A stretch of DNA of 64,000 bases. Origin: Eledone cirrhosa. Taxonomy: Eukaryota. The position numbers and the translations under genes are program-made. Each line of letters begins with the position of its first letter. Positions within the stretch are counted from its first letter, which is position 1. Shown here one piece after another: positions 15,934 to 41,179 of the stretch. The DNA lies in contig OZ024740.1 in the NCBI GenBank assembly GCA_964016885.1, positions 257,362,001 through 257,426,000 of the forward strand. Reading direction: 5' to 3'. The notes below the pieces were generated by a model that saw only the letters and a program-made list of their open reading frames with translations, was not told the DNA's origin and did no database searches.

Positions 15934-16092
15934 TATAAGGAAAAAAGGTGAAATCGAAAATGAAACTGAAGTTTTTTAAGAATATTTATTTGGTTCCTTT
16001 ACCGGTTTCGCAGTTCTTATGCTTTTCGGTAAAGTAACCAAATAACTATTCTTAAAAAGACTCCAGTTGCATTTTCGATTTCATCTTTTTTC

Positions 16093-16100
<8 letters not shown>
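15934..16100. repeat. Imperfect inverted repeat (about 70-bp arms) next to (TA)n, with a hammerhead remnant in the loop
   Basis: TATAAGGAAAAAAGGTGAAATCGAAAATG...CCTTTACCG pairs with CGGTAAAGTAACC...CATTTTCGATTTCATCTTTTTTCCTCATATA; the minus strand of the loop reads GCA-taagaac-TGC GAAAC CG GTA AAGG. Confidence 0.8.
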
Positions 16101-23394: not shown

Positions 23395-23432
23395 TAAATA
23401 TGGTTTTATAAATATAGTTTCCATTTATTAAT

Positions 23433-23567
<135 letters not shown>

Positions 23568-23597
23568 AGATATATATGTATATATATATATATATAT

Positions 23598-23743
23598 ATT
23601 AATAAAAGGAATTCCAAATTTGTCACATTTACTCGTTTTATTTACAATCCTTTAAAATGATAATGGTATTAGAATGAATATAATTTTAAAGGATTGTAAA
23701 TAAAACGAGTAAATCAGACAAATTTGGAGTTCCTTTTATTAAT
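23598..23743. mobile_element. Fold-back pair of 3' termini of the Neptune-like PLE family, in (TA)n
   Basis: Right arm TTTTAAAGGATTGTAAATAAAACGAGTAAATCAGACAAATTTGGAGTTCCTTTTATTAATAT nearly equals 41087-41147; the left arm is its reverse complement. Confidence 0.9.
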
Positions 23744-23776
23744 ATAATCTTCTATACACAATCACACACACCCGTG

Positions 23777-23846
<70 letters not shown>

Positions 23847-23860
23847 GTATATATATACAC

Positions 23861-23893
<33 letters not shown>

Positions 23894-23914
23894 ATTGTGT
23901 ATATATATATATAT

Positions 23915-24498
23915 ATATCATGCTGATATACAAATCTGGCGGATCAGGCAGTCTGCTAATATGAAAATCAGGCTCATCAGTCACTGTATATTTCAGAAAA
24001 TATCATATATTCTCACTATCTCTGACAGTTGACAGGTGAACAGTGTACGCTACTTATGAAGGGTAATAACCCAGAAACATGAGTGTCTGCAGCTCTGTTT
24101 ACATGCCGACACAAGAGCAAGAATGACGAGATCATTCTATTCACACGGCTTAGGAGGCTGTTTGCATAATCGAATATCATTATTAATATTATTAATTAAT
24201 ATTATTATTATTATTAATTAATAATATTAATAATGATATTCGATTATGCAAACAGCCTCCTAAGCCGTGTGAATAGAATGATCTCGTCATTCTTGCTCTT
24301 GTGTCGGCATGTAAACAGAGCTGCAGACACTCATGTTTCTGGGTTATTACCCTTCATAAGTAGCGTACACTGTTCACCTGTCAACTGTCAGAGATAGTGA
24401 GAATATATGATATTTTCTGAAATATACAGTGACTGATGAGCCTGATTTTCATATTAGCAGACTGCCTGATCCGCCAGATTTGTATATCAGCATGATAT
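23915..24498. repeat. Apparently perfect palindrome, about 285-bp arms, A/T-only centre
   Basis: ATATCATGCTGATATACAAATCTGGCGG...CGAATATCATTATTAAT mirrored to ...CCGCCAGATTTGTATATCAGCATGATAT; no mismatch found by eye. Each arm contains the HHR-like CTTATGA A GGGT-aata-ACCC A GAAAC ATGAGT GTC. Confidence 0.92.
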
Positions 24499-26092: not shown

Positions 26093-26529
26093 TATTAAAA
26101 GGATAACAAGGACGATTGATTACTCCTTCATTGCATTTATTGGTAGGTGACGCGCGTTTCGCCACTGATCAGCTCAAGGTTCGATCTGTATCGATCCTAC
26201 CCGACTCAATATTCGGCGGCTCGACGTACCCTGTAAAATGCTATAAGAAAATGAAATACAAATGAAATACATTTCTTATAGCATTTTAAAGGGTCCGTCG
26301 AGCCGCCGATTATTGAGTCGAATAGGATCTATACAGATCGAACCTTGAGCTGATCAGTGGGGAAACGCGCGTCAGCTACCAATAAATGCGATGAAGGAGT
26401 TTATCAATCGTCCTTGTTATCCTTTCAATATATTACACTCTGTATATCTCTACTCCTCATCACAGAAGTGAACCTAAACATCGAGTGCTCTCCCGGGTGA
26501 ACCTGCAGTAACTCCAAGTTAAAACCCCT

Positions 26530-26849: not shown

Positions 26850-28405
26850 AGGCATGTGCTCAATGTGCAATATGCAGTGGATGGCAGCTAGGTGGCTGGG
26901 TTCATGCGACTCTGCGGAAATGACAGATTTAGTTGGAAGTTACTTGTTACTTATCATCAGAGCTGAAACCCAACCCTTGCAAGACGGAATATATAGGGAC
27001 TGCGCCCTATTTGCAGTCCACAATTGCACTAATCGAGGCATTGACTTGCTCAAAAAGCGAATTACATAGATTTTTTTTAAATAACGATCTCTCTATCACC
27101 ATCGAGCCGAACCATATGGTAGTAAACTTCCTGGACGTTACCCTATATCTTAACAATAACTTATATTACCCTTATCATAAACCAGGTGAAATACTTACAT
27201 ATATTAGACCACACTTTAACCACCCACCGGCAGTCATCAGAGCAGTTATCAAATCTAACTCGTATAGGATCTCCATGCTATCCGCAAATGAGGAGATATT
27301 TATAAACCATGCGGCATATTATAATAAGGCTCTTTCAGAATCTGGTTATGAACAGTCCATTTACTACATACCTAAATGCCATAACACAGAACTAGAAATA
27401 CTTTAGCATATAGCCAGATTCGCCGGAATTTTAGCAGTAACAGCACCTATACAGGGAACCTTAATGTTGGCAGAGGCCTACTTCCCACTCCCAGTAGCAG
27501 AATCAGAACTAGAATAGGAATGAGCAATGGGATGACAAATAACAAATGCCCAGGTAATAATAACCCTATGAAGGCCCCTGCCAACTCCACTAGAACCCCT
27601 AAAAGAAATAGACCTAGAAATATCACCTGGCTTAACCCCCCCCCCATTCTCATCTAACTTAGCCACTAATATCCCTAAACGCTTCTTCTCTATCCTATCT
27701 ACCCCCCAACCATAGATATTACAAACACTTTAATAAAAACAACATTAAAATCCCATTCTCTACAATACCTAACCTAGCTAGCCACATCGTATTCAGTAAG
27801 CATCATAAACTAAGACAGTATAACTCCCACAGCACGGTACCATTACCACCCTCAAATACACCACGCCACTACACCAATACTTACTATAGTAGCACACCTC
27901 CCCCATCTAATCCTTCTAGCGCGCACCAACTGCATAGTTTAAACAACCCTACCCTCACTAACCGCAGCAGTAACTGCAACTGCTGTTACCCTAATGCATG
28001 CCCACTAAACGGACAATGCCTTACACCCAATACAGTTTATAGGTGCACAGTTAAAACAGCATCGCATACCAGCTCCTATATTGGCTTTACCTCTAACTCT
28101 TTTAAGGTACGCTATAACGCGCACTCATTTTCCTTCTGAGACCCTAGCAATAATGTTCAACATCTCTAGCTAGGCTCATTAAAAACCTTAAATTAACCAA
28201 CATTGAACACTCACTAACATGGGATATCTTGGCTAGAGCCCGACCGTTCAATGGACGAAGAAACTCTTGTGATCTCTGTCTTACCGAAGCCTATTACATA
28301 ACTCTATCACGACCTCTACCGCTTAATGATAGAACGGAGGTAACTATTAGCTGTCAACATCGAAGGGCTAATTCCTTCGCCAACAGAATATTTCACCCAA
28401 CATAG
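26850..28405 (+). mobile_element. 5'-truncated, frameshifted Penelope-like element, Naiad-like (RT C-half, thumb, GIY-YIG)
   Basis: GSCDSAEMTDLVGSYLL...GIYRD; VNFLDVTL...YYPYHKP...NHPP...RISMLS...ALSESGY; RNITWLNPP. By manual translation: CNCCYPNACPLNGQCL..NTVYRCTV...YIGFTSNSFKVRYNAH...TWDIL...CDLCLTE...LNDRTE...SCQH, stop at 28403-28405. Confidence 0.85.
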
Positions 28406-29133: not shown

Positions 29134-30462
<1,329 letters not shown>

Positions 30463-31302: not shown

Positions 31303-31424
31303 GGAGGTGAGTTTTATTGTAGTACAATAAAGCAATGCAGATATCGGATAAGAAGCACTCTACAGTTTGTAGGACTGGAGTATGCATAATATAAGATCAA
31401 AAGATGGTTAAAGGAGTTCCATGT

Positions 31425-31493
31425 ATTTTATTATGCGCATTTCAAAAACAAACATCATCACGCAATAATATTTGTGTTTTCATCAGATAAAAC
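31425..31493 (-). ncRNA. Type I hammerhead ribozyme motif, core intact (left arm)
   Basis: Reverse complement of the motif at 32360-32428. Confidence 0.8.
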
Positions 31494-32359
31494 AGGAGAA
31501 CATGATATGAAGGCTAAAAAACACTTGTGGATAGTGCAGTTTTAAATCAACATATGAAAAGTGGTTTTAGATTGATGTGTGATATTGGTAAAAAAATATT
31601 TTATTTAGAGAGGGGGGGGGTTGGAAAGGATGAAAAGGGAAGGAGATGAGAGGGAGAGATGGGTGATAGAGAGAAAGAGAAAGAGATAGTTTTTATAACT
31701 GAGAGGAGATATATTTTTTACATAGAGAGGTTGAAAACCGTTGGAAGATACTGTATAAATTAAAAATTTTGAAAATTAACAAAGGGAGGATACGTGCGAG
31801 GAAAAAATATTTTATTTAGGGAGGGGGGGGGGAATGAAAAAAAGGGGGAGGAGATGAGAGTGAAGGTGGAGAGGGAGAGATGGGTGATAGAGAGAAAGAG
31901 ATAGTTTTTCTATGTTAAAACAATATATCTTTTTCTCAGTTATAAAAACTATCTCTTTCTCTCTATCACCCATCTTTCCCTCTCCACCTTCACTCTCATC
32001 TCCTCCCCCTTTTTTTCATCCTTTCCCCCCCCCCCTCCCTAAATAAAATATTTTTTCCTCGCACATATCCTCCCTTTGTTAATTTTCAAAATTTTTAATT
32101 TATACAGTATCTTCCAACGGTTTTCAACCTCTCTATGTAAAAAATATATCTCCTCTCAGTTATAAAAACTATCTCTTTCTCTCTATCACCCATCTCTCCC
32201 TCTCATCTCCTTCCCTTTTCATCCTTTCCAACCCCCCCCCCTCTCAAAATAAAATATTTTTTTCCCAATATCACACATCAATCTAAAACCACTTTTCATA
32301 TGTTGATTTAAAACTGCACTATCCACAAGTGTTCTTTAGCCTTCATATCATGTTCTCCT

Positions 32360-32428
32360 GTTTTATCTGATGAAAACACAAATATTATTGCATGATGATG
32401 TTTGTTTTTGAAATGCGCATAATAAAAT
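32360..32428 (+). ncRNA. Type I hammerhead ribozyme motif, core intact (right arm)
   Basis: GTTTTAT CTGATGA aaacACAAATATTATT-gcat-GATGATGTTTGTtttt GAAA TGCGCA TA ATAAAAT. Confidence 0.82.
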
Positions 32429-32459
32429 ACATGGAACTCCTTTAACCATCTTTTGATCT

Positions 32460-34558: not shown

Positions 34559-34833
34559 TATATATATGAATGTATATATAGTGTATTTTGCAATACACTG
34601 TATGCTTAATTAAAAGCATTTTGAAGACCACACGCTATTGTTTTAAAATAGTGACAATGTCACTTATTTAAATTTTCAGCAAACAGGTGGAGATAAACTG
34701 ACAGACCTCCGTTTCGAAATTGTTGGTACTTATCAAATAAGTGACATTGTCACTATTTTAAAACAACAGCGTATGGTCTTCAAAATGCTTTTAATTAAGC
34801 ATACAGTGTATTGCAAAATACACTATATATACA

Positions 34834-34840
<7 letters not shown>
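34559..34840. repeat. Inverted repeat with about 110-bp arms and a 65-bp loop, in (TA)n
   Basis: ATGAATGTATATATAGTGTATTTTGCAATACAC...GTCACTTATTT mirrored; the loop on the minus strand contains GAAAC GGAGGTCT GTC (hammerhead 3'-half-like). Confidence 0.88.
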
Positions 34841-34900
<60 letters not shown>

Positions 34901-34906
<6 letters not shown>

Positions 34907-35056
34907 TATTAAAATAACAGATTAAAGTTTAAGCAAAGGATCGCTGCTTTCACCCTTAACGGGATCTTCTGAAACTTACTAGTTTCAGAAGATCCCGTTA
35001 GGGGTGAAAGCAGCGATTCTTTTCTTAAACTTTAATCTGTTATTTTAATAAATAAT
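34901..35056. repeat. Inverted repeat with about 76-bp arms and a 4-bp loop, next to (TA)n
   Basis: ATTATTTATTAAAATAACAGATTAAAG...CTTCTGAAACT tact AGTTTCAGAAG...CTGTTATTTTAATAAATAAT; the arms start with HHR-like CAGAAGA T CCC-gtta-GGG GT GAAA. Confidence 0.88.
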
Positions 35057-36371: not shown

Positions 36372-38415
36372 CACGCACGCATATGTATACGCACGTATAT
36401 ATAAAAAAAATACTTACACACAGACACACACACTTGCGTTGGTTCGAGAGGGGAGGTATGTGTTGGCGGTGTTGATGATGTATGGAGTTGTGTCTTGTGG
36501 TGGTGGTGGTGGAGTTGTGAGCGACAAAAATATACAGGATCGAATAATACGATGGGTTACAGGTTAAAAGGTGACATAGGGAACGCGGGGGAAAAGAGTT
36601 TATGGACGTATAGTGATGTGTGTTGTGGTCATGGTGGTGGTGGTGGTGCAGGGGTGATATGTTCGACAAAATGATTACATGATCAGAAGTTACGGTGGGT
36701 TACAGGGTACGGCAGACGGCTGGGGGGGGGGGGGGGCGGCTATAACACAGTCGATCTGGGAGTGAGGGATGATATGTGTTGATGATGTTAATGATGTTAA
36801 TGATTGTTGAAGTATGTGGATGTATCTAGTGGTCGCGGTGGTGGTGTGTGTGCCACAGTACATTTACAGGGTCGAATTTAGCGTGGGGTTGTAGGTTAGG
36901 GTAAGCAGAGGGAACGTGGAGGGATAATGTAGCAAGTGTGGATGGTAGACATATGACGATGTGTGCTGTAGTGGTGGCGACGGTGTGATATGATCGACAT
37001 TGTATTTATACGATCAGATGTTACTATGGTTTGCAAGGTAAAAGCTGACAGAGAGGACAGATAGAACCCAATGTTGCAAGGTTGAGGGGTGTATGGCGAT
37101 GTGATTTTTGGTGGGGGTGATGTATGCGGCATGATATACAAAATGCGGGGTTACAAATGGTTACATGCTATACAATAAAATAAATTCACTGAGATGGGCG
37201 ATGGTGAGACGGGGCAGAGGTGGTTATTATTATGCTGGGTCATGGTTATATATATATAACTGAACATATAAACTCTGAAATTAAGAATTTAGCTGAAATT
37301 ATACCAACAGTTATCAAAGATACAAGAGAATGCCCGTCAGAACAAAACGAAAGAAATGTGGAAAACAAATCACATCAAAATAAGAAAAGAAATGTGGAAG
37401 GCATGGAAAATATTTCTTAACATAGGAAAACAAAACTTCTGGAAAGCATACAAATGCAAAATATATGTCTAAACACATTCGAAATGGCTCTCTCTAACTG
37501 CACCCATACTCCCTCGTAAATACCTAATTACACAAATTGCAGGAGTACCAGAAGAAGAAACAAAATCCCGATGGGAATTTACATTGACAAAATTCAGGAC
37601 CAACATCTCCATTTCTCAATGTAAACAATCTCGCTACAAAGCCAAATATGAAGCTATTGATGTCCAAATTGAAGTCGAAATTTCAAAGCTAACGACTGGT
37701 AATATAGCTGAAAAACTACGAGAATTATGGATCAGAGATACCTCAAATGAAGAAAGCAAATCAAGAAGGTTATGCCAGCGGAAACAATTATTTCTGGACG
37801 AATATGTTGCAAATTACGGTAAAGACTCTGGAACTCTGAGAAAAAGCATTAAAAGTTTTCAATCTCACCAATACAACATACGCCAAAACACGTGGCAACA
37901 CAAAAACTCACCTACCTTGAAACAAAGAAGACTACGGTAAGAGCTTTTTCTACAAAAACACCCTAACGCACACAACATGAACACAAAGCACAAACACGAT
38001 AGATATTCCTTTGACCTGACCATGAGAAGTAGAAAAACCAGGAGATCATTCTCAAGATCTCAACAGAGATTACCCACAAGAAACTGGGCGAAAAAACGAT
38101 CTAAACCTGAAAGCAAACCTAGGTCATTTTCCCAGATTGGTAAAAATAATGCTAACAAGAAATGGAAAAATAATATACATAATATCAAAAATAGGACAAA
38201 AATATAACGAAACCAAATATAATATCACGACCAAAAGTTCATCAAGCAAACACGAAAAGGAATATAAATCATGAACAGAGAAAAATCCATTTTTTAACGT
38301 CAGGACAACAAAAACCGGAAAAAGAAAAACTCCAGGAGGAAACATATCCAAAACAACTGTACACGTAGATCCTAAAATAATTAATTTATCCAAAAGAGAT
38401 CTTGACAATGATGAA

Positions 38416-40584
38416 ATGCAAATTCTGTCAACAGGACTGAAATTCACACCGACTCCAACAGTCAACCACCAAGAACTGAAGGAGGATACCCAAGAATTAT
38501 GTCGTAAATTACGTCTTGTAGAATTCTTCGCTAAAAATAATGAGAGTGATGAATCACTAGTAAAGAATAAATCAAATTTCACTCCGCCAAAAAGAAGAAA
38601 TATCTATCTCGACCAATACATTGACATCCTGTCTAAATTTCCTCTTAGACGTAATACTAATGTTAGGCCAAACATTAACAAATCAGAAATGTCTGCACTT
38701 AAACGTATACAAAATGATAAAACAATAATAATTAAACAAGCAGATAAAGGGGGTGCAGTTGTTATAATGGATGCTGAATACTACAAAGATTTGGTTGAGG
38801 AACAACTGAAAGACACAACATTCTATCATGAAAAACCGTCAAATATAGACCACAACATCATGAAGAAGATCAAAAACCTTGCTTCAAAATACCACAACTC
38901 ACTTACTGATAAGGAAAGAGACTACATCACCAATTTTGAGCCCAAATCCAGCAACCTGTATGGCCTACCGAAAGTTCATAAGTCAAAAGAAATCCAACTG
39001 GCGGTAAAAGAACAAAACAGTGAGTACATTAAATTACTACACCCAAAAGACTTAAAACTTAGACCTATTATAGCTGGTCCAACATGCCCTACCCACAGTC
39101 TAAGCAATTTTGTTGACATTATTTTGAAACCACTATGTATTCACATACCCAGTTTCATCCGGGATGATATCGACTTCCTGTCCCATCTTCCCAAAACCAC
39201 GGAAACGAATTCACTTCTACTTAGTTTTGATGTGGTAAGCCTTTACACCAACATTACACATGATTTAGGAATAAAGGCGGTTAAATACTGGTTGGAAAAA
39301 CATAGAGAAGTGATTCCCACCATTTATATTAGACGCAGTGAAACATATTCTGGAAAACAAAATTTTTTCTTCAATGGAAAGAAGTACATCCAAATTAGAG
39401 GCACAGCGATGGGAACGAAGTTTGCTCCCGTTTACGCGAACTCTGTAATGGGATACTTAGAACAACAACTCTACCAAGAAATAGAGGAAAAATATAGCAC
39501 TGAATTTAGAAAGTACATTGAAAAATCTTGGAAAAGATACATTGACGACTGTTTCATCATCTGGACAGAATCTCTAGATACTTTGGATGAGTTCAATATC
39601 CCCCTGAATAACCTACACCTATCTCCCCAATTCACATAATAGATGAGTAGTACCGAATTACCATTCCTAGATATAATGGTAATCAAAAACGACACAACCA
39701 TTACCACGGATATATATTATAAACACACAGACACCCATCAATATCTGAATTTTAAGTCTTGCCATCCACATCATACAAAATGCAACATCCCATACTGCAT
39801 AGCCAGAAGAATGTGTACCATTGTAGAAGATACAAATACCAGGAACAAACGCCTAACAGAACTGAGAGAATGTTTGCTCAAACAAAAATACCCATCTCTA
39901 CTTATAGAAAATGGCATTCAGCGGGCTATAAAAATACCTATACAAAAATTTAGGACAACCCAAGGAAGAAGAAACCAAGAACTGGTCATACCATTTATAA
40001 TGACACACAACCCATGTCACCAGAATATCTTCAACACTGCCAAAGCAAACCTACCGATCATTGCTCAAAGTATTGAATTAAAAGGCTTAATCACAGACCG
40101 ATCTTTGACACTTAGTAAAAGACAGCCGAAAAATGTGAAGCAATTACTAACAAAAGCAAAGTTTGACCTTAACAACAAAGACCAATCATTCACTGTATCT
40201 AAATGCAATGATAGTCGATGTGGCACATGTCAATCCATACACACCGGTCAATATATGAACACAAAAACTGGAAAAATATTCCCAAATGCAAATATGAACT
40301 GCAAAAGCAGAAATGTAATTTACTCTATTAAATGCCCGAATTATGAAGAACTATATGTCGGTCAAACTGGAGATGCACTATCGGAACGTGCACGGGTGCA
40401 CCGACAGCAAATCAGAGACCCAGACGTCCATCAGATACCCCTGAGTAACCATCTAGCAACATGTGGTCAGAAAATATTTATAATATTTCTATTCTACAAA
40501 TTACACAGCCCAAGTGAAATCAAGATAAAAATTAAAGAAAAGAATTTTATTGAGAAATTCCAACCCAAGCTAAATGAACAATAA
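38416..40584 (+). pseudogene. PLE reverse transcriptase and GIY-YIG endonuclease (disrupted)
   Basis: LSTGLKFTPTP, KQADKGGAVVIMD, LYGLPKVHK, LRPII, FDVVSLYTNI, GTAMGTKFAPVYAN, WKRYIDDCFIIW, LPFLDI, SCHP, Cys linker KCNDSRCGTC...NCKSRNVIYSIKC...LYVGQT. In-frame TAA TAG at 39637-39642 and a locally shifted frame near 39320-39370. Confidence 0.93.
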
Positions 40585-40990
40585 TAATGCTTAGGGGTAT
40601 TACTCCTACTATGGCTACGCCTACGACCATGTCGACTACCACCACTAACAACAACAACCACAAAAATAATAATAATAAAAGTGATGTTGATGGTGATGAT
40701 TAATGAAGACTTTTTATAAAAACCCTAGAAAATGGTATTTTCCTCATTTCTAAAAATAGCAAAACAATTGATGCTTTGGATAGGGTCAAATAGAAGTCGT
40801 TAGACATGCTCAACCAACCGTGACGCCTAAACCAATCAGCTTTAGTAATCCAGTGAAACTACACACCGATGGTCGAAATACAGTTTGCAAAACTTAACAT
40901 TCTGTAGCCTCTTTTCACTGTATATAAGGCACACAATTTACCCATCTCATTATAGTTGAAAATTGCAAACTTGACCGTCACCACAGAATA

Positions 40991-41029
40991 TGAACCTGAA
41001 GATTGCGAAAGCATGAAAGTACTTGTTCA
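40991..41029 (+). ncRNA. Minimal type I hammerhead ribozyme motif in the PLE 3' pLTR
   Basis: TGAAC CTGAAGA t TGC-GAAA-GCA t GAAA GTAC TT GTTCA: perfect stem I, GNRA-capped stem II, palindromic GTAC. Confidence 0.85.
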
Positions 41030-41141
41030 ATTAACACATAACATGTAATATTCTACCATACTATTTCATGATAATACCATTATACATTTTAAAGAATTGT
41101 AAATAAAACGAGTAAATCAGACAAAGTTGGAATTCCTTTTA

Positions 41142-41179
<38 letters not shown>

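What the first reader, a model, noticed from the sequence alone, without database searches (positions are those of the whole stretch)
23598..23743. A mini-palindrome is the 3' terminus of the Neptune-like PLE found 17 kb away
Seen: both arms match the last 60-75 bp of the RT/GIY-YIG element (41072-41145) and stop at the same terminal CCTTTTATTAAT before (TA)n. This is direct in-window evidence that the TA-embedded palindromes derive from PLEs: a severely truncated insertion whose two copies of the 3' end face outward.
Basis: seen in the sequence. Interest (0 to 1): 0.72.

Follow-up and report, generated by a model that had tools for sequence, protein, structure and literature searches.

The report
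Mirror-image Penelope retrotransposon end stub
This 185-base mirror-image insert is two short copies of the end repeat of a very common Penelope-type jumping gene joined head to head, a known insertion shape, likely made when both cut DNA strands copied the same RNA from two neighbouring start points.

Summary
The palindrome is real and belongs to the RT/GIY-YIG Penelope-like element (PLE): 27 of 29 other ORF-bearing copies end at the same terminus. Three corrections. (1) Only the left arm meets (TA)n; the right arm carries a 39-bp PLE 'tail' (23744-23782). (2) The terminus is the end of a 193-bp pseudo-LTR (pLTR) that also forms the leader upstream of ORF1. (3) The copy 17 kb away is not the parent; the family has at least 7,815 ends. 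Of 75 head-to-head pairs examined, 69 carry exactly one tail. Partner arms differ at 2.8% of sites against 5.4% when shuffled, and either arm owns the central base (13:14). This best fits one RNA copied twice, from the two start sites reported in vitro (PMC11167929), onto both target ends; cDNA fold-back remains a serious rival. Inverted pLTR plus one-sided tail is a published architecture, and this scan noted it before on other DNA, including this genome. Of four neighbouring palindromes, one is PLE-linked, two have the same anatomy without an ORF link, and one does not fit.

The parts
23420..23597 (.). (TA)n microsatellite, left flank (inferred target)
23598..23678 (-). tailless arm: last 82 bp of the pLTR (= 41065-41146), 3' end pointing left into (TA)n
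   Evidence: 91.5% over 82 columns
23679..23743 (+). tailed arm: last 66 bp of the pLTR (= 41081-41146)
   Evidence: 93.9% over 66 columns
23744..23782 (+). 39-bp PLE tail, on this arm only; in complete copies it lies between the pLTR and the element's own internal (TA)n before ORF1
23783..23917 (.). (TA)n/(TG)n microsatellite, right flank
37255..41146 (+). 5'-truncated, broken copy of the same PLE family; begins inside ORF1 after a short (TA) run and ends tailless in (TA)n; a relative, not the parent
38275..39639 (+). ORF2 part 1, reverse transcriptase (PF00078, E 8e-8), ends at a premature stop
39643..40584 (+). ORF2 part 2, RT thumb, CX4CXXC finger and GIY-YIG endonuclease (PF01541, E 1.5e-5)
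40921..40928 (+). TATA box (TATAWAWR) 31 bp upstream of the sharp 5' edge; predicted promoter
   Evidence: 21 of 25 long copies scored match it
40952..41146 (+). pLTR, about 193 bp; its 5' edge is the inferred transcription start
40991..41029 (+). minimal type I hammerhead motif with palindromic helix III; predicted cut after 41024; absent from the mini-palindrome
   Evidence: own descriptor; not among the 150 of 157 Rfam matches listed

Best explanation
The insert 23598-23782 is two short copies of the pLTR end of an abundant RT/GIY-YIG Penelope-like element, joined head to head inside a (TA)n tract with the tail on one arm only, and it was likely made by copying one RNA twice. Inferred steps: (1) the element's protein cuts both strands of (TA)n. 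(2) One target end primes reverse transcription inside the RNA at the pLTR end (TTATTAAT/ATA) and the other about 39 nt further 3', at the element's own (TA)n; the interval is the tail. (3) Both cDNAs run toward the RNA's 5' end. When the template is the mRNA leader they normally stop at the start site after about 193 nt; here they stopped early or were trimmed later. (4) The two cDNA 3' ends are joined through a few complementary bases, and host repair fills in. Family membership and anatomy are shown (about 0.97). The single template is strongly supported for the family. Two primings rather than fold-back is inferred.
For: Terminus belongs to the element: 27 of 29 ORF-anchored loci. pLTR-tail-(TA)n-ATG order: 18 of 28 distinct 5'-anchored loci have the tail just upstream in the same orientation (9 printed). 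One tail per pair: 69 of 75 pairs, 2 with none, 4 with two; independent arms would give 44%, P 1e-18; in the positional sample alone 26 of 28, P 6e-8. One template: partner arms differ at 2.8% of sites vs 5.4 +/- 0.2% in 500 shuffles, and share 34 rare variants vs 1.6 expected; subfamily sites disagree in 62 of 738 (8.4%) vs 43% shuffled. Against fold-back of the tailed cDNA alone: in 27 pairs with a one-base centre the tailed arm owns that base in 13 and the tailless arm in 14; where arm starts differ by more than 10 nt in one-tailed pairs, the tailless arm is the longer in 8 of 19, including this palindrome (my tally). L033 and L104 carry only an inverted tail plus 14-29 nt at the 5' end of a long tailless arm. 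In vitro, a Poseidon PLE cuts and extends both strands, starts at two internal sites that bracket the tail, and is predicted to be a dimer (PMC11167929).
Against: Ten of 80 positional loci and about 11 of 37 junction-anchored loci have a second arm that starts at the centre and lacks the terminus, as centre-outward fold-back synthesis or later deletion would give. Several junctions are exact fold-back hairpins with 4-5 nt loops (L120, L122, L208). The 8.6-kb palindrome L208 would need about 4.3 kb of strand displacement. Subfamily sites disagree within pairs more often (8.4%) than all sites (2.8%), so some pairs may have two templates. For this locus alone the evidence is thin: 3 differences in 61 sites and one shared variant (41126 T), which sits on one arm only in 8 of the 10 pairs that carry it. 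Later flipping of the centre by recombination between arms could also give 13:14. The 75 pairs pool four differently chosen samples.
Confidence: 0.6

Rival explanations
1. Fold-back (snap-back): one cDNA is primed from the target, its 3' end folds onto itself and is extended back outward, and synthesis ends at the first TA-like site (TTATTAATA), which joins the other target end. This also gives identical arms and one tail.
For: Same-template signal. Centre-anchored partial arms; 9 of 10 in the positional sample sit beside a tailed full arm. Hairpin-type junctions, and arms whose 5' ends coincide at arbitrary ORF positions (L139 39665/39669). Self-priming was proposed for such junctions in PMC3846280.
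Against: Centre ownership 13:14 and tailless arm longer in 8 of 19. Tailless solos exist (14 of 43 arms) but tailless palindromes are rare (2 of 75). Inverted tail-only stubs beside long tailless arms (L033, L104). Seven junction-anchored loci have a tailless full arm beside a partial arm, against three with a tailed one.
Confidence: 0.3
2. This particular short form is a collapsed remnant: a full 2 x 193-bp palindrome (made by either route) lost its centre later by cruciform-driven deletion. This concerns arm length only and is compatible with either mechanism above.
For: Full-length pLTR palindromes are the commonest paired form; instability of perfect palindromes is established knowledge (recalled).
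Against: Short solo copies with similar 5' ends exist without any palindrome (41068, 41081), so early stops happen at insertion. Both arms were short in 3 of 23 positional palindromes, about 1.3 expected from independent truncation, which decides nothing.
Confidence: 0.3
3. Two different RNAs, one per target end, or two separate insertions into the same (TA)n.
For: A few pairs disagree at 3-5 of 11-12 subfamily sites (L007, L008, L154, L172).
Against: Arm similarity and shared rare variants; one tail in 69 of 75; no (TA)n at the centres.
Confidence: 0.06
4. An independent repeat (MITE or fold-back DNA transposon with terminal inverted repeats) that happens to lie beside the PLE, or that now moves as a fixed unit.
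For: Long inverted repeats in TA sites resemble MITEs; 739 sites share one centre motif.
Against: 27 of 29 ORF copies end in it; centres and arm lengths vary from site to site, and each pair has its own subfamily type; only one other copy of comparable short form was among 40 scored.
Confidence: 0.02

Closest known systems
Insertion unit of endonuclease-positive Penelope-like elements: inverted 5'-truncated pLTR plus 30-40-bp tail at one end (PMC3846280; PMC8557442 fig. 2 legend)
   Same: Head-to-head inverted pLTR, tail on one arm, palindromic junction, (TA)n target, hammerhead in the pLTR, partial tandems.
   Different: Here most ends have no ORF beside them (76 of 94 sampled ends are pLTR-only), and this insert is shorter than one pLTR. 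The one-tail rule and arm identity are counted over 75 pairs.
Poseidon PAc of Anolis in vitro (PMC11167929)
   Same: Two RT start points bracketing the tail; both strands used; AT-rich target.
   Different: Here the tail lies in the 5' leader before the ATG and both start points look like (TA)n, so RNA-target pairing is possible; in PAc the starts lie inside the ORF and are not homologous to the target. In the parts read, that paper does not derive inverted copies from one RNA.
Neptune clade of PLEs
   Same: RT followed by CX4CXXC finger and CCHH-type GIY-YIG; (TA)n bias; separate ORF1.
   Different: No tree against named Neptune, Nematis or Hydra references was possible.
Non-LTR retrozymes (bioRxiv 10.64898/2026.07.22.740005)
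   Same: Non-coding, hammerhead-bearing pLTR derivatives.
   Different: Retrozymes are tandem arrays; this is an inverted pair and lacks the hammerhead.
L1 twin priming (recalled, not read)
   Same: Both target ends prime on one RNA.
   Different: In L1 the two cDNAs cover different parts of the RNA; here they overlap almost completely.

Membership tests
EN+ Penelope-like element | RT followed by C-terminal GIY-YIG endonuclease | tested here: met
   Pfam PF00078 and PF01541 in the window copy and in the 775-aa open ORF2 of L208 (RT there below the curated cut-off)
EN+ Penelope-like element | [quoted passage not shown] | tested here: met
   LIYCIKCPNCEELYVG, then RVH and SGH in L208 ORF2, conserved in homologs; criterion from PMC8557442
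EN+ Penelope-like element | pLTR formed by partial tandem, repeated at both ends | tested here: met
   27 of 29 ORF copies end in it; 18 of 28 5'-anchored loci have the tail, mostly with pLTR sequence, upstream of ORF1
EN+ Penelope-like element | 30-40-bp tail at one end | tested here: met
   39 bp at 23744-23782; 69 of 75 pairs with exactly one
EN+ Penelope-like element | hammerhead motif in the pLTR | tested here: met
   motif at 40991-41029 by own descriptor; not listed by Rfam; activity untested; missing from the mini-palindrome
EN+ Penelope-like element | target-site duplication | tested here: inconclusive
   cannot be read inside (TA)n
Neptune clade | CX2-5CXXC finger upstream of GIY-YIG (absent in Penelope/Poseidon) | tested here: met
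   CNDNRCGTC in L208, CNDSRCGTC in the window; shared with Nematis and Naiad, so not unique
Neptune clade | RT phylogeny with Neptune references | not testable with these tools
   none of the 120 homologs listed carries a clade name
Naiad | N-terminal endonuclease, no hammerhead | tested here: not met
   endonuclease is C-terminal and a hammerhead motif is present
MITE / fold-back DNA transposon | fixed unit whose inverted ends are not the 3' end of an RT element | tested here: not met
Non-LTR retrozyme | tandem units each with a hammerhead | tested here: not met
   inverted pair without hammerhead

The most novel reading that the evidence does not exclude
Penelope-like elements integrate by copying one RNA molecule twice: a protein dimer primes both target ends at two sites one tail-length apart, and the two cDNA 3' ends are joined. 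Inverted pLTRs and the one-sided tail are then the primary product, copying of the mRNA leader seeds the genome with thousands of ready-made hairpins, and some templates begin at the hammerhead cut (8.6-kb palindrome L208 centred on it).
Probability: 0.55. Interest if true: 0.6.

Novelty: new member of a known kind. Interest (0 to 1): 0.33.

Why it matters
The object itself is one of roughly 2,300 similar palindromes of this family (extrapolated) and has a published shape. Its value is as data on an open question: PMC8557442 names the origin of tandem/inverted PLE structures as unresolved, and PMC11167929 leaves the steps after first-strand synthesis unvalidated. The one-tail rule, the shared variants of partner arms and the even ownership of the centre give sharp predictions for the existing in vitro system. 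If transcribed, such palindromes would be ready-made double-stranded RNA; PMC5625713 ties palindromic repeats to heavy A-to-I editing. Expression was not tested here.

Tried and rejected
Rfam scan of 20000-43000: only sub-threshold hairpin matches, no hammerhead among the 150 of 157 listed. First hammerhead pattern missed the motif through a pattern flaw; redone. RNA runs: no RNA holder listed; no reads were laid. Relatives outside this genome: single-protein scans of metagenome and genome contigs found nothing; the alignment scan gave 59 loci, apparently animal DNA in microbial bins; 11 of them were checked for a slippery heptamer before ORF2 with no consistent result. The neighbour at 37255-41146 as parent: rejected; with at least one end per 383 kb, a copy within 17 kb is unremarkable. 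A peak of 5' ends at the hammerhead cut: weak, about 3 independent events at 41024-41026 among 21 internal starts, plus L086 at 41027; BLAST edges blur this. ORF links for palindromes 23918-24495, 26098-26425 and 29256-30351: no consistent link in 30 loci each with 1.5-kb flanks; isolated hits at L215, L241, L245, L261, L271 and L290 were not in a shared position. ORF1/ORF2 frameshift as a novelty: dropped, PMC8557442 fig. 1 legend already lists an ORF1 separated by a frameshift. Arm homogenisation by gene conversion as the source of arm similarity: not excluded, but 41126 T stays on one arm in 8 of 10 pairs, so conversion is not frequent.

Full report
Observation. The window holds a palindrome at 23598-23743. 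Its left arm is the reverse complement of 41065-41146 (82 columns, 91.5%) and its right arm matches 41081-41146 (66 columns, 93.9%). The 3' ends face outward. The left arm runs into (TA)n. The element at 37255-41146 encodes RT and GIY-YIG domains split by stops.

Does the terminus belong to the element? A search of the own genome with the endonuclease region returned 40 scored matches of 1,244 candidates; 30 loci were fetched. Leaving out the window's own copy, 27 of 29 run on to 41144-41146; one stops at 41080 and one at 40598. A search with the 5' part (30 loci, 28 distinct other than the window) showed the tail just upstream in the same orientation in 18 of 28, mostly preceded by pLTR sequence. 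The order is pLTR, tail, a short internal (TA)n, then the ATG of ORF1 (9 loci printed). The terminus is thus the end of a pLTR that stands both behind the ORF and, in partial tandems, in front of it. A TATAWAWR box lies 31 bp upstream of the pLTR's 5' edge in 21 of 25 long copies scored, so that edge is likely the transcription start. A minimal hammerhead motif with palindromic helix III lies at 40991-41029, of the kind described for PLEs (PMC4209133, passages). The mini-palindrome begins downstream of it.

How common? An exact 24-mer from the arm occurs 7,815 times, the reversed control 0 times. The motif for two complete pLTRs meeting head to head occurs at 739 sites. I fetched the first 95 of the 100 listed 24-mer hits, all from the first 55 Mb of one chromosome, as 80 loci. 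They fell into 23 pLTR-only pairs (one, L116, is really the centre of a long palindrome), 5 longer pairs, 10 pairs with an incomplete second arm, 35 short solos and 7 long solos; several 'solos' have short inverted remnants below the cut-off. Of 94 exact-match ends, 41 are in two-ended pairs and 18 extend beyond the pLTR. Scaling 28 pairs per 94 ends gives about 2,300 palindromes, an extrapolation from one region. Of 109 ends, 67 start at 40951-40963. The nearby copy is not the parent: other copies match the arms at 96% and 98%.

Rules of the pairs. I pooled 75 pairs with two termini from four samples (best hits, anchors, the positional sample, and 37 further junction sites), dropping five loci that were duplicates or the window's own long copy. 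Sixty-nine have one tail, 2 none, 4 two; two of those four are upstream pLTRs of longer copies where the tail is internal, one is complex and one borderline. With the tail frequency of solos (29 of 43) independent arms would give 44% one-tailed, P 1e-18; for the positional sample alone, 26 of 28, P 6e-8. Partner arms differ at 2.8% of sites against 5.4% in 500 shuffles (minimum 4.8%) and share 34 rare variants against 1.6. At 12 subfamily sites they disagree in 62 of 738 cases against 43%. Both arms therefore usually come from one template. The largest case, L208, is an 8.6-kb palindrome of two copies with open ORFs that differ at one residue of 775, centred on the predicted hammerhead cut, with a tail at one outer end only.

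Mechanism. One template and one tail fit two models. In fold-back, the tailed cDNA turns on itself, so it should own the centre and be the longer arm. By my tally, the tailed arm owns the single central base in 13 of 27 pairs and the tailless arm in 14; the tailless arm is longer in 8 of 19 clearly unequal pairs, this palindrome among them. The pairs with fewest private changes are mixed as well. L033 and L104 have only an inverted tail plus 14-29 nt beside a long tailless arm. Tailless palindromes are rare although tailless solos are not. These points favour two primings on one RNA, with the two cDNA ends annealed at the near-palindromic 5-mer of the start site. PMC11167929 (parts 1-2 of 4 read) shows in vitro that a PLE protein cuts and extends both strands, starts inside the RNA at two sites whose interval is the tail, and is predicted to be a dimer. 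Internal starts also explain why pLTR-only copies with a sharp 5' edge dominate: the mRNA leader is itself a template. Against this reading stand the centre-anchored partial arms (10 of 80; about 11 of 37), exact hairpin junctions, the long displacement needed for L208, and possible later flipping of centres. I put twin priming at 0.6 and fold-back at 0.3. For this locus alone the single-template evidence is weak (3 differences in 61 sites, one shared recurrent variant), and whether it was born short or lost its centre cannot be told.

The general claim. Four neighbouring palindromes were searched, 30 loci each. 31394-32459 has a hammerhead motif in both arms, a GIY-YIG-like frame upstream in the same orientation in about 10 loci (Pfam E 0.01 for one, below cut-off) and one-sided tails: a second PLE family, without the CX2-5CXXC spacing. 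26098-26425 has two end classes and one tail in 4 of 4 head-to-head pairs, with no ORF link found. 29256-30351 is built of 522-bp tandem units with mostly one-sided extensions, with no ORF link found. 23918-24495 does not fit: its arms are 99% alike but 86-89% to other copies, its outer ends are not family ends, and its right flank is not shared; it looks like a local inverted duplication.

Comparison with what is known. Inverted pLTR plus a 30-40-bp tail at one end, head-to-head junction palindromes and (TA)n bias are described in PMC3846280 and PMC8557442 (passages). The protein has the CCHH motif and the CX2-5CXXC finger, which excludes Penelope/Poseidon and, with the C-terminal endonuclease, Naiad; 'Neptune-like' is fair, but no tree with named references was possible. 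Seven paper searches returned no paper that states the one-RNA, two-cDNA origin of inverted pLTRs; the library lacks most subscription journals and no supplements were read. Also seen: PMC5625713 and PMC12602865 (passages) and bioRxiv 10.64898/2026.07.22.740005 (part 1 of 5). L1 twin priming and palindrome instability are recalled. Earlier notes of this scan reach the same architecture and a similar mechanism on other DNA, including this genome; I had written my reading before seeing them, and they are not independent support. No note overlaps this region.

Verdict. Real, PLE-derived, known architecture; a new member of a known kind. Interest 0.33, resting on the counted rules that make the integration mechanism testable.

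Noticed in passing
L208:339-8997 (G000:C1 about 21872040-21880700): 8.6-kb palindrome of two copies with open ORF1 and ORF2, centred on the predicted hammerhead cut site, tail at one outer end only; suggests a ribozyme-cut tandem RNA served as template.
   Followed up: partly
window 38290-38298; L208:6152: ORF1 and ORF2 overlap in the -1 frame with a T TTT TTA heptamer, unchanged in 23 of 29 hits and in slippery phase in 6 of 7 independent copies with at most 2 stops in ORF1. A conserved RT motif lies upstream of the first Met of ORF2. Candidate -1 frameshift; downstream structure is weak and a splice acceptor is an alternative.
   Followed up: partly
window 31394-32459: Palindrome of a second PLE family: hammerhead motif in both arms, one-sided tail, GIY-YIG-like frame upstream in other copies.
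   Followed up: partly
window 29256-30351: Head-to-head array of 522-bp tandem units with a roughly 120-bp one-sided extension; 3,164 first-look candidates; no hammerhead or ORF link found.
   Followed up: partly
window 26098-26425: 328-bp palindrome with tailed and tailless end classes, 2,168 candidates, no ORF link found.
   Followed up: partly
window 23918-24495: 578-bp palindrome with 99% identical arms of an older repeat (86-89% to other copies) that has 33-bp tandem units; likely local inverted duplication, assembly artefact not excluded.
   Followed up: partly
window 26933-28139: Broken RT-thumb and GIY-YIG-like frames of another, apparently Penelope/Poseidon-type element (type judged by recalled motif); no Pfam hit.
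   Followed up: no
window 34902-35055, 34569-34835, 15938-16094: Further short palindromes beside (TA)n; two of them have (TA)n on one side only.
   Followed up: no
window 57414 (minus strand): Another type I hammerhead motif, resembling that of the 31394-32459 family.
   Followed up: no
L183, L207, L140: Arms with an internal deletion from about 40985 to 41020 or 41048 that removes the hammerhead core.
   Followed up: no
L329-L387: Relatives of this RT occur in bacterial metagenome bins, probably animal host DNA mis-binned.
   Followed up: no
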